IMG/VR virus record: IMGVR_UViG_2541047794_000002
Coordinates: 1 to 51,929 of that record
Strand: one strand, 5' to 3'
From: a virus
Lineage: Duplodnaviria; Heunggongvirae; Uroviricota; Caudoviricetes
Length of the DNA stretch: 51,929 nt
Shown: piece by piece, positions 31,586 through 32,246 of the stretch
How the letters are laid out: each line of letters opens with the position of its first letter
How positions within the stretch are numbered: position 1 is the stretch's first letter
Made by a program: the position numbers and the translations under genes
Notes under the pieces: model-generated
Seen by the model: the letters and a program-made list of their open reading frames with translations, nothing else
What the model was told of the DNA's origin: nothing
Databases searched by the model: none

Positions 31586-31843
31586 ATGCACACATCAGGA
31601 AAACTGAACAAACATATAAAGCCACATTACCGCGCCCTTGATATGGCTGAACACTGGCTAAGGGTGGCGATTAAGGCAATAGATCGCAACGCCGGTGAAG
31701 GATACGCGAAAGCACATCCCGAACTGATTAGCGCATTCATGACAACGGCGGCTGCAAACTTTGCCACTCTGACCGAACGGGAGATTGCTGAAGCGGAGGA
31801 AGTGACAACCATCAATATTAAGTCCGGAGAGCAGGCAGCATGA
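31586..31843 (+). CDS. Hypothetical protein
   Basis: 85-aa ORF after the origin. Confidence 0.45.
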   Translation: MHTSGKLNKHIKPHYRALDMAEHWLRVAIKAIDRNAGEGYAKAHPELISAFMTTAAANFATLTEREIAEAEEVTTINIKSGEQAA

Positions 31844-32246
31844 CGGCGCAAATATCAGTTTACGGGAGGTTGGTGGACGACCCGCAGACAAAACAGACCA
31901 GCAAGGGCATCCCCATGACGCTGGCGCGTATGGCGGTATCACTGCCCTGCAGTCGGATGACGGTCAGGCGACGATGTGGTTATCTGTCCTGGCGTTTGGC
32001 AGACAAGCCGACACGCTGGCAAAGCATCACAAAGGCGAACTCCTGAGCGTGGCGGGTAACATGCAGGTGAGCCAGTGGACTGGACAGAACGGTGAAACGC
32101 GGCAGCGCTGGCAGGTTATCGCAGACAGCGTAATCAGTGCGCGAACGGTGCGACCTGGCGGGAACAGACGTAAAACCACAGGCACACAGGGCAACACACC
32201 ACCAGCGGGAGGGGATGATCTCTACGGTGACAATATTCCATTCTGA
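31840..32246 (+). pseudogene. SSB-like single-stranded DNA-binding protein, split by an apparent frameshift
   Basis: Two overlapping ORFs (31840..32046, 31974..32246): N-terminal OB-fold-like part in one frame, remainder in another, ending in an acidic DDLYGDNIPF tail like the SSB C-terminus. Confidence 0.5.

What the first reader, a model, noticed from the sequence alone, without database searches (positions are those of the whole stretch)
31840..32246. SSB-like gene in the element is split by a frameshift
The N-terminal OB-fold-like portion and the remainder, including an acidic SSB-type C-terminal tail (DDLYGDNIPF), are in different frames overlapping around 31930..32046. This could be a real inactivating mutation, a sequencing error, or a programmed shift.
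Basis: seen in the sequence. Interest (0 to 1): 0.4.

Follow-up and report, generated by a model that had tools for sequence, protein, structure and literature searches.

The report
Broken SSB gene in phage satellite
A small phage satellite nested inside a lambda-like prophage of E. coli has lost four bases from its single-stranded-DNA-binding gene; this is a real, inherited and fairly recent pseudogene, which is an ordinary kind of event.

Summary
ORF 31840..32046 (68 aa) and ORF 31974..32246 (90 aa) are two halves of one SSB gene. Putting back 4 bases after 31951 gives a 136-aa protein that passes the curated cut-offs of Pfam SSB and TIGR00621. It is 83% identical to the intact SSB of the model satellite EcCICFT073. 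Intact relatives read CAGTCAGT at the break and the window reads CAGT (31950-31953), so one unit of a 4-bp tandem repeat was lost. There is no homopolymer at the site. It is not a sequencing error: the exact 68-aa and 90-aa products recur in many independent public assemblies (the 90-aa product in 235 index blocks, 12 with contigs over 1 Mb). It is not a programmed shift: there is no slippery heptamer, and every sequenced homologue without a deletion is one continuous ORF. The mutation is recent. Carriers show no further changes within ssb, and intact alleles differ by only 2 residues. The gene sits beside the origin iterons of a helper-embedded PICI of the published 11capE type, inserted in capsid gene E of a lambdoid prophage. 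The same frameshifted satellite occurs in prophages with diverged flanks, which suggests that its SSB is dispensable. Low interest.

The parts
31840..32246 (+). ssb pseudogene of the satellite, whole former coding region (would be 136 codons after repair)
   Evidence: The repaired translation gives Pfam SSB 62.2 bits (cut-off 26), TIGR00621 57.5 bits (cut-off 53.95) and PHROG 44 SSB at 3e-35. It is 83% identical to the EcCICFT073 SSB.
31840..32046 (+). 5' ORF of 68 aa: 38 native SSB residues (strands beta1-beta2) followed by 30 out-of-frame residues and TGA
   Evidence: It has no Pfam hit on its own. The exact product was found on 22 contigs.
31950..31953 (+). Deletion site: a single CAGT unit where intact alleles have CAGTCAGT. 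Placement of the lost unit is ambiguous within 31949-31955.
   Evidence: Alignments. Allele typing of the loci.
31974..32246 (+). 3' ORF of 90 aa (strands beta3-beta5 of the OB fold, linker, acidic tip DDLYGDNIPF). This frame is open from 31806.
   Evidence: Pfam SSB 37.3 bits. The exact product is in 235 index blocks and is annotated in NCBI as EQP56880.1 and GDE32511.1.
31586..31843 (+). Conserved 85-aa gene of unknown function; its TGA stop overlaps the ssb ATG (ATGA)
   Evidence: PHROG 1231, E=3e-48. It is present upstream of ssb in every relative read.
31308..31541 (.). Putative satellite origin: GGTAGAGG-type iterons, about 11 or more copies in both orientations, between the primase gene and the 85-aa/ssb genes
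   Evidence: The position matches the 'ori downstream of pri' described for these PICIs (PMC10111431).
29548..31299 (+). Satellite primase/replicase (D5_N + DUF5906), apparently intact at 583 aa
   Evidence: Relatives have the same length.
32254..32276 (+). GC-rich hairpin (GCCGGA-GAAA-TCCGGC) followed by TTTTAT, 8 nt after the ssb stop; a likely end of the replication operon
   Evidence: Read directly from the sequence. The formal consensus scan did not call it, so this is an inference.
25173..25182 (+). attL identity block AGCCGAAGCA, at the left junction of the satellite inside prophage capsid gene E
   Evidence: The N-terminal capsid fragment ends in ...GYVKPKH. The 10-bp block is as in PMC10111431.
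36611..36620 (+). attR identity block AGCCGAAGCA; the capsid E reading frame resumes here (EVNPQMTLRRLPDED...)

Best explanation
The feature is the ssb gene of an 11.4-kb helper-embedded phage satellite, an HE-PICI of the 11capE type spanning about 25183..36620. The satellite is inserted in major capsid gene E of a lambdoid prophage. The gene was inactivated by loss of one unit of a CAGTCAGT tandem repeat, most likely through replication slippage (inferred). Translation from ATG 31840 now leaves the SSB frame after residue 38. By alignment to E. coli SSB this lies in the loop between strands beta2 and beta3. Translation ends at 32046. The 68-aa product lacks the residues that align with the ssDNA-contacting Trp54, Phe60 and Trp88 of E. 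coli SSB, and it lacks the C-terminal IPF tip, so it cannot act as an SSB (inferred). ssb is the last gene before a hairpin, so no downstream gene should suffer polarity (inferred). The mutation arose once, recently, on a haplotype that already carried T24I. It has since been inherited and spread with the satellite. The satellite presumably relies on the host SSB when it replicates (inferred, not shown).
For: (1) Anatomy: searches show a 4-bp gap at a tandem repeat, and repair gives one 136-aa ORF. (2) Identity: the repaired protein passes Pfam SSB and TIGR00621 above their curated cut-offs and matches solved SSBs down to 8e-11. The alignment to E. coli SSB puts the break at about residue 42 and aligns W48, F54 and W81 with W54, F60 and W88. 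(3) Homologues are intact. In the three complete-genome loci read, the gene is a single 137-150-aa ORF, and in all 55 rows listed it is annotated as single-stranded DNA-binding protein. The 70-bp junction query finds 155 complete genomes. The best matches are 70/74, identical except for the 4 bases, and none is a full-length ungapped match. (4) The allele is real and heritable. The exact 68-aa product is on 22 contigs, and the exact 90-aa product is in 235 index blocks that include 12 with contigs over 1 Mb. Sources are NCBI, ENA, JGI and Logan. All 15 carrier loci fetched read CCCTGCAGTCGGATG, as does one IMG/VR contig. (5) The event is recent and had a single origin. The ten carriers compared show no substitutions within 31840-32246. 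Intact alleles P0129/L014 and L040 each differ from the repaired protein by only 2 residues. L040 shares the diagnostic A31867 and T31910. (6) The family gene is normally under purifying selection, with dN/dS of 0.15-0.28 in divergent pairs. (7) Context: int, AlpA, DUF4222, primase, iterons, capsid-E-like, D-like and Nu1-like genes, plus a 10-bp att block inside capsid gene E. This matches Tommasini et al. 2023 (PMC10111431).
Against: No reads or expression data were available, so loss of function is inferred from sequence alone. The downstream frame has an ATG at 31974 with a weak AGG upstream, so a 90-aa fragment carrying the acidic tip could be made. The frameshifted allele is sampled far more often than its nearest intact sisters (235 index blocks against one contig for P0129). 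Simple decay does not predict that, although clonal expansion of the host would explain it.
Confidence: 0.9

Rival explanations
1. Sequencing or assembly error in this record: the true sequence has CAGTCAGT and the gene is intact.
For: No raw reads could be inspected. No complete RefSeq E. coli genome gives a full-length ungapped match to the deletion junction.
Against: The site is not a homopolymer. The identical allele occurs in many independent assemblies and metagenomes from four sources: 22 contigs for the 68-aa product and 235 index blocks for the 90-aa product. All 15 fetched carrier loci and IMG/VR locus L052 have it. Carriers include structurally different composites.
Confidence: 0.02
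2. Programmed recoding: a -1 (or +2) ribosomal frameshift, or transcriptional slippage, near 31951 yields full-length SSB from the two frames.
For: The downstream frame is open across the whole upstream ORF, from 31806, so a shift anywhere would give a fusion protein.
Against: There is no X_XXY_YYZ heptamer and no A/T run in 31840-32046. The codons at the junction (TGC AGT CGG) are not slippery. Homologues do not share a two-frame arrangement: 34 of 37 IMG/VR alleles with this local haplotype, and all complete-genome homologues read, are single ORFs. The layout is fully explained by a recent deletion from near-identical intact alleles.
Confidence: 0.02
3. Loss or splitting of ssb is selectively favoured rather than neutral decay. 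One version is escape from host defences that sense foreign SSB. Another is that the 90-aa fragment with the acidic IPF tip acts as a decoy for host SSB-interacting proteins.
For: The frameshifted satellite is common, in 235 index blocks. It occurs, nearly identical, in at least two clearly different lambdoid prophage backgrounds whose divergence starts at the attL core. An independent 20-bp frameshifting deletion hit ssb in another lineage (L046, L048). Foreign SSB as a trigger of defence systems is documented, for example for AbpAB (PMC10732053, abstract only).
Against: Intact alleles dominate: 34 of 37 in IMG/VR, and every complete-genome homologue read or listed. They are under purifying selection. 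Abundance can reflect clonal expansion of carrier strains. There is no evidence that the 90-aa ORF is expressed. Half an OB fold is unlikely to be stable.
Confidence: 0.06

Closest known systems
SSB of the model Gram-negative PICI EcCICFT073 (E. coli CFT073, WP_000126698.1, NC_004431.1 1384538-1384948)
   Same: It has the same length (136 aa) and is 83% identical to the repaired window protein. It sits in the same place: primase, ori gap, 85-aa gene, ssb, then capsid-E-like and head-decoration genes. The C-terminal tip is of the same type...YGDDIPF.
   Different: The CFT073 gene is an intact single ORF, whereas the window copy lacks 4 bp. EcCICFT073 is integrated in the chromosome, not inside a prophage gene.
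Helper-embedded PICI Eco567.11capE and its 201 relatives in capsid gene E (Tommasini, Mageeney and Williams 2023, PMC10111431)
   Same: The element is about 11 kb and is inserted in the lambda-E-type capsid gene of a lambdoid prophage, with a 10-bp att identity block. It shows the Integration/Bro/Replication/Late zone order, with SSB counted in the Replication zone. It carries its own capsid-E homologue.
   Different: The paper does not mention a frameshifted ssb in the text I searched. I did not compare the window with Eco567.11capE itself, so whether it is the same element or a relative is not established.
E. coli chromosomal SSB (P0AGE0; structures 1eqq, 1kaw, 1qvc)
   Same: It has an OB-fold domain followed by a flexible linker and an acidic tip ending in IPF. 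The alignment covers residues 4-124, and W54, F60 and W88 of E. coli SSB align with W48, F54 and W81.
   Different: Identity is only 25%. The linker is much shorter (136 against 178 aa). The position of Trp40 is Cys and that of His55 is Leu in the satellite protein.
Accessory SSB genes of conjugative plasmids and phages (own knowledge, not tested here)
   Same: Small SSB paralogues are carried by mobile elements in cells that already have an essential host SSB. They are generally non-essential for the element under laboratory conditions.
   Different: No experiment on any PICI SSB was found in the library.

Membership tests
Bacterial SSB family (Pfam PF00436 / NCBIfam TIGR00621) | OB-fold domain that matches the family profile above the curated cut-off | tested here: met
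   For the repaired 136-aa sequence: PF00436 62.2 bits against cut-off 26, over residues 4-99; TIGR00621 57.5 bits against 53.95; solved SSB chains down to E=8e-11.
Bacterial SSB family (Pfam PF00436 / NCBIfam TIGR00621) | Aromatic ssDNA-contact residues equivalent to E. coli Trp40, Trp54, Phe60 and Trp88 | tested here: inconclusive
   The alignment conserves three of the four (W48, F54, W81). The Trp40 position is Cys37. The roles of these residues are taken from established knowledge of E. coli SSB.
Bacterial SSB family (Pfam PF00436 / NCBIfam TIGR00621) | Acidic C-terminal tip ending in (D)-I-P-F | tested here: met
   The sequence ends ...GGDDLYGDNIPF. Homologues end in YGDDIPF, YGDNIPF or WGDDIPF.
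Bacterial SSB family (Pfam PF00436 / NCBIfam TIGR00621) | OB domain and tail encoded in one continuous reading frame, that is a functional gene | tested here: not met
   A 4-bp deletion after codon 38 splits the gene into 68-aa and 90-aa ORFs. It is therefore a pseudogene of the family, not a functional member.
Bacterial SSB family (Pfam PF00436 / NCBIfam TIGR00621) | Homotetramer that binds ssDNA | not testable with these tools
   This needs biochemistry on the intact allele. No structure prediction was run.
Helper-embedded PICI (HE-PICI), site group E:Phage_cap_E | Integration inside a prophage late gene, with att identity blocks flanking the element | tested here: met
   AGCCGAAGCA lies at 25173-25182 and at 36611-36620. 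Capsid E is split into an N-terminal fragment (24911-25213) and a C-terminal fragment (36625-37401) with Pfam Phage_cap_E.
Helper-embedded PICI (HE-PICI), site group E:Phage_cap_E | Tyrosine integrase plus AlpA at the left end, co-oriented with the interrupted late gene; then a replication zone (primase/DUF5906, ori, SSB) and a late zone | tested here: met
   Integrase domains and primase D5_N + DUF5906; Phage_AlpA, DUF4222, Phage_cap_E, HDPD and Phage_Nu1 in identical carrier loci; iterons.
Helper-embedded PICI (HE-PICI), site group E:Phage_cap_E | Helper-dependent induction, excision, replication and transfer | not testable with these tools
   The only indirect evidence is that nearly identical satellites sit in diverged prophages.
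Capsid-forming PICI (cf-PICI) | The satellite encodes a full capsid and packaging set (portal, protease, terL, connectors as well as capsid) | tested here: not met
   The only late genes are the capsid-E-like, D-like and Nu1-like terS genes plus a 91-aa ORF. This was my first guess and I rejected it.
Programmed -1 ribosomal frameshift gene | Slippery X_XXY_YYZ site in the overlap, and the two-frame layout conserved among homologues | tested here: not met
   There is no heptamer. Homologues are single ORFs.

The most novel reading that the evidence does not exclude
The satellite's own SSB is dispensable, or even costly, for this helper-embedded PICI. After the frameshift the element still moved into at least one other lambdoid prophage background. 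It is sampled far more often than its closest intact sisters. Loss of a foreign SSB, or a tail-bearing 90-aa decoy fragment, might help it evade host defences that sense foreign SSB.
Probability: 0.07. Interest if true: 0.45.

Novelty: already known. Interest (0 to 1): 0.12.

Why it matters
It matters little beyond annotation. The two ORFs should be annotated as one frameshifted ssb pseudogene, not as a 'hypothetical protein' plus a short 'single-stranded DNA-binding protein', which is how public records carry them. The one modestly useful point is that nature has supplied a knock-out. A satellite identical except for a broken ssb persists, and appears in more than one prophage background. That suggests PICI-encoded SSB is not required for maintenance and possibly not for transfer. 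The idea could be tested directly against the near-identical intact alleles L014/P0129 and L040.

Tried and rejected
(1) First guess of a capsid-forming PICI: rejected, because the element has no portal, protease or terL genes. The helper-embedded PICI description fits.

(2) The 111-aa SSB cluster P0065 (index-listed in 97 blocks) looked like a second truncation. It is only an ATG-to-TTG start change, and the ORF is intact.

(3) A scan of GTDB species-representative genomes, with a pattern that matches both alleles, found nothing. It gave no information on species range.

(4) An Rfam scan of the whole window found nothing at gathering thresholds. No C4/isrK-type immunity RNA was detected.

(5) The consensus terminator scan called nothing after ssb. 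The hairpin at 32254-32276 is therefore only read by eye.

(6) The search for slippery sites and homopolymers at the junction found none.

(7) Literature searches for experiments on PICI SSB found none.

(8) The first look at CFT073 hit the icd prophage, not EcCICFT073. The second found it.

(9) No structure prediction was run, because the sequence-level family assignment was already above curated cut-offs.

Full report
**Observation.** The region holds two overlapping ORFs on the + strand: 31840..32046 (68 aa) and 31974..32246 (90 aa).
- The first 38 residues of the first ORF (MTAQISVYGRLVDDPQTKQTSKGIPMTLARMAVSLPCS) look like the start of an SSB. The remaining 30 residues are arginine-rich and out-of-frame.
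- The second frame is open from 31806. It ends with ...GGDDLYGDNIPF, an SSB-type acidic tip.
- One expectation is not met. There is no homopolymer near the break; the only runs of 4 or more in the gene are at 31890, 31911, 32172 and 32211.

**Where the lesion is.**
- A megablast of 31586-32300 against 5,426 complete E. coli genomes found homologues in 1,404 of them. In all 55 rows listed the gene is annotated as single-stranded DNA-binding protein, preceded by the same 85-aa hypothetical gene.
- Three homologues were fetched: EC931, AVS0542 and A1_136. Each encodes a single ORF of 137-150 aa.
- The DNA alignment shows one 4-bp gap in the window. EC931 reads CTGCAGTCAGTCGGATG and the window reads CTGCAGTCGGATG.
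- One unit of a perfect CAGT-CAGT tandem repeat is missing. The retained unit is at 31950-31953, and placement of the lost unit is ambiguous within 31949-31955.
- Inserting four bases after 31951 gives one 136-aa ORF.

**What the gene is.**
- The repaired protein scores 62.2 bits on Pfam SSB (cut-off 26) and 57.5 bits on TIGR00621 (cut-off 53.95). It matches PHROG 44 (SSB) at 3e-35 and solved SSB structures down to 8e-11.
It places the break at about E. coli residue 42, in the loop between strands beta2 and beta3.
- The residues that align with Trp54, Phe60 and Trp88 (W48, F54, W81) all lie downstream of the break.
- The 68-aa product therefore lacks most of the OB fold and the C-terminal tip. 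The 90-aa ORF holds only the second half of the fold. Loss of SSB function is an inference from these facts.

**Sequencing error?**
- No. The exact 68-aa product is encoded on 22 contigs read from NCBI, ENA and Logan assemblies.
- The exact 90-aa product is listed in 235 index blocks, 12 of which hold contigs over 1 Mb. It carries NCBI accessions such as EQP56880.1, annotated as a hypothetical protein of E. coli HVH 70.
- All 15 carrier loci fetched read CCCTGCAGTCGGATG, and so does one IMG/VR contig (L052).
- In contrast, a 70-bp junction query against complete RefSeq genomes gave 155 genomes. The best matches were 70/74, identical except for the four bases, and none was a full-length ungapped match.
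- The allele is real, but it is confined to one lineage of the element.

**Programmed shift?**
- No. There is no X_XXY_YYZ heptamer and no A/T run anywhere in 31840-32046.
- The codons at the junction (TGC AGT CGG) are not slippery.
- Homologues do not share the two-frame layout.

**Age and origin.**
- The ten carrier loci compared base by base with the window show no substitutions inside 31840-32246.
- Two intact alleles each differ from the repaired protein by only two residues: P0129 (locus L014, GCA_902838995.1) and the IMG/VR locus L040. Both read CAGTCAGT.
- L040 shares the window's diagnostic bases A31867 and T31910 (Thr24Ile). Those changes therefore predate the deletion.
- Divergent intact family members show dN/dS of 0.15-0.28 over the OB domain. 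The gene is normally under purifying selection.
- Together this points to a single, recent loss by slippage on a slippage-prone haplotype. The other allele groups (AVS0542, A1_136) do not have the perfect tandem repeat.

**Context.** The gene belongs to an 11.4-kb element with this gene order:

| Feature | Window coordinates |
|---|---|
| Tyrosine integrase | 25295-26581 |
| AlpA and small genes | not mapped here |
| DUF4222 | 29252-29551 |
| D5_N/DUF5906 primase | 29548-31299 |
| GGTAGAGG-type iterons (about 11 or more) | 31308-31541 |
| 85-aa gene | 31586-31843 |
| ssb pseudogene | 31840-32246 |
| Capsid-E-like gene | 32511-33551 |
| Head-decoration-like gene | 33561-33902 |
| AlpA-like gene | 33912-34256 |
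| Nu1-type terS | 34449-35000 |
| Abi_C gene (- strand) | 35690-36451 |

- The element interrupts the lambda-E-type major capsid gene of a lambdoid prophage. A 10-bp identity block, AGCCGAAGCA, lies at 25173-25182 and at 36611-36620.
- This is the helper-embedded PICI configuration published for Eco567.11capE and 201 relatives in capsid gene E. That work places SSB in the 'Replication zone' (PMC10111431).
- The experimentally studied PICI EcCICFT073 has an intact 136-aa SSB in the same position. It is 83% identical to the repaired window protein.
- ssb is followed 8 nt later by a GC-rich hairpin plus TTTTAT, read. The consensus scan did not call it. If it is a terminator, the premature stop should have no polar effect on other genes (inference).

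**Does the break matter to the element?**
- Every other gene of the satellite has the same length as in relatives.
- Carriers L016, L019 and L007 have a satellite that differs from the window at 5 or fewer positions between attL and 34345.
- Their prophage flanks, however, are diverged. There are up to 80 mismatches per 500 bp just left of attL, and identity is 95-96% on the right. Divergence on the left starts at the att core.
- These carriers have the window's ssb haplotype. They do not have the haplotype of L014, the intact-ssb element that sits in a right flank 99.7% identical to theirs.
- The simplest reading is that the frameshifted satellite entered, or recombined into, another prophage after the mutation. 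SSB would then not be needed for persistence, and perhaps not for transfer. This is indirect evidence.
- Clonal expansion of carrier strains could account for the allele's abundance.
- An independent 20-bp frameshifting deletion between TGAGC repeats disrupts ssb in IMG/VR loci L046 and L048. Overall, 34 of 37 IMG/VR alleles with this local haplotype are intact.

**Verdict.**
- This is a real, heritable, recent 4-bp slippage deletion. It turns the accessory ssb gene of a known type of phage satellite into a pseudogene.
- It is neither an artefact nor recoding. The event is ordinary, and both the element type and its gene content are published.
- The only mildly interesting point is the natural knock-out, which suggests that the PICI SSB is dispensable.

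Noticed in passing
window 25173-36620 (att cores at 25173-25182 and 36611-36620): The whole 11.4-kb satellite sits inside the lambda-E-type major capsid gene of a lambdoid prophage, and carries its own capsid-E and head-decoration homologues. This matches the published helper-embedded PICI configuration (PMC10111431).
   Followed up: yes
window 34281-34353 compared with 18776-18848: The satellite has a cos-like site that is 85% identical to the helper prophage's lambda-type cos. The 12-nt cohesive-end core differs: the helper has GGGCGGCGACCT and the satellite has GGCGGAAGGCG within GGGGCGGAAGGCG. The site lies just upstream of the satellite's own Nu1-type small terminase gene (34449-35000), which suggests satellite-specific packaging recognition.
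   Followed up: partly
window 31308-31541: A dense array of GGTAGAGG-type iterons in both orientations lies between the primase gene and the 85-aa/ssb genes. It is presumably the satellite's replication origin.
   Followed up: partly
window 34345-36579; loci L001, L014, L016, L019, L007: The right end of the satellite is a variable cargo slot. Here it holds an Abi_C-domain gene (35690-36451, - strand) plus terS. L001 and L014 hold a 438-aa AF_1680-family gene instead. L016, L019 and L007 lack terS, although they carry the same frameshifted ssb.
   Followed up: partly
IMG/VR loci L046 and L048 (ssb codons ~71-77): An independent 20-bp deletion between TGAGC direct repeats frameshifts ssb in another lineage of the same satellite family, giving a 111-aa product.
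   Followed up: partly
locus L018 (GCA_964050645.1), 1-4210 and 13502-15375: One carrier of the frameshifted ssb also has IS elements inserted in the satellite integrase and in the Abi_C gene. That copy is decaying further.
   Followed up: no
loci L016, L019, L007 compared with window 24500-25182 and 36579-42560: Nearly identical frameshifted satellites lie in prophages whose flanks differ by 4-16% from the window's. Divergence begins at the att cores, and both cores carry the same two variant positions.
   Followed up: partly
window 27729-28643: the ORF listing gives a 304-aa ORF here. Gene callers on identical carrier loci instead call only a 121-aa gene (28278-28643) and a 100-aa gene on the opposite strand (27767-28069). 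This is the 'Bro zone', and its true coding content was not resolved.
   Followed up: no
window 1-256: The left edge of the window matches, in reverse orientation, a segment next to or inside an IS21-family istB gene in locus L018. The prophage early region probably carries an IS.
   Followed up: no
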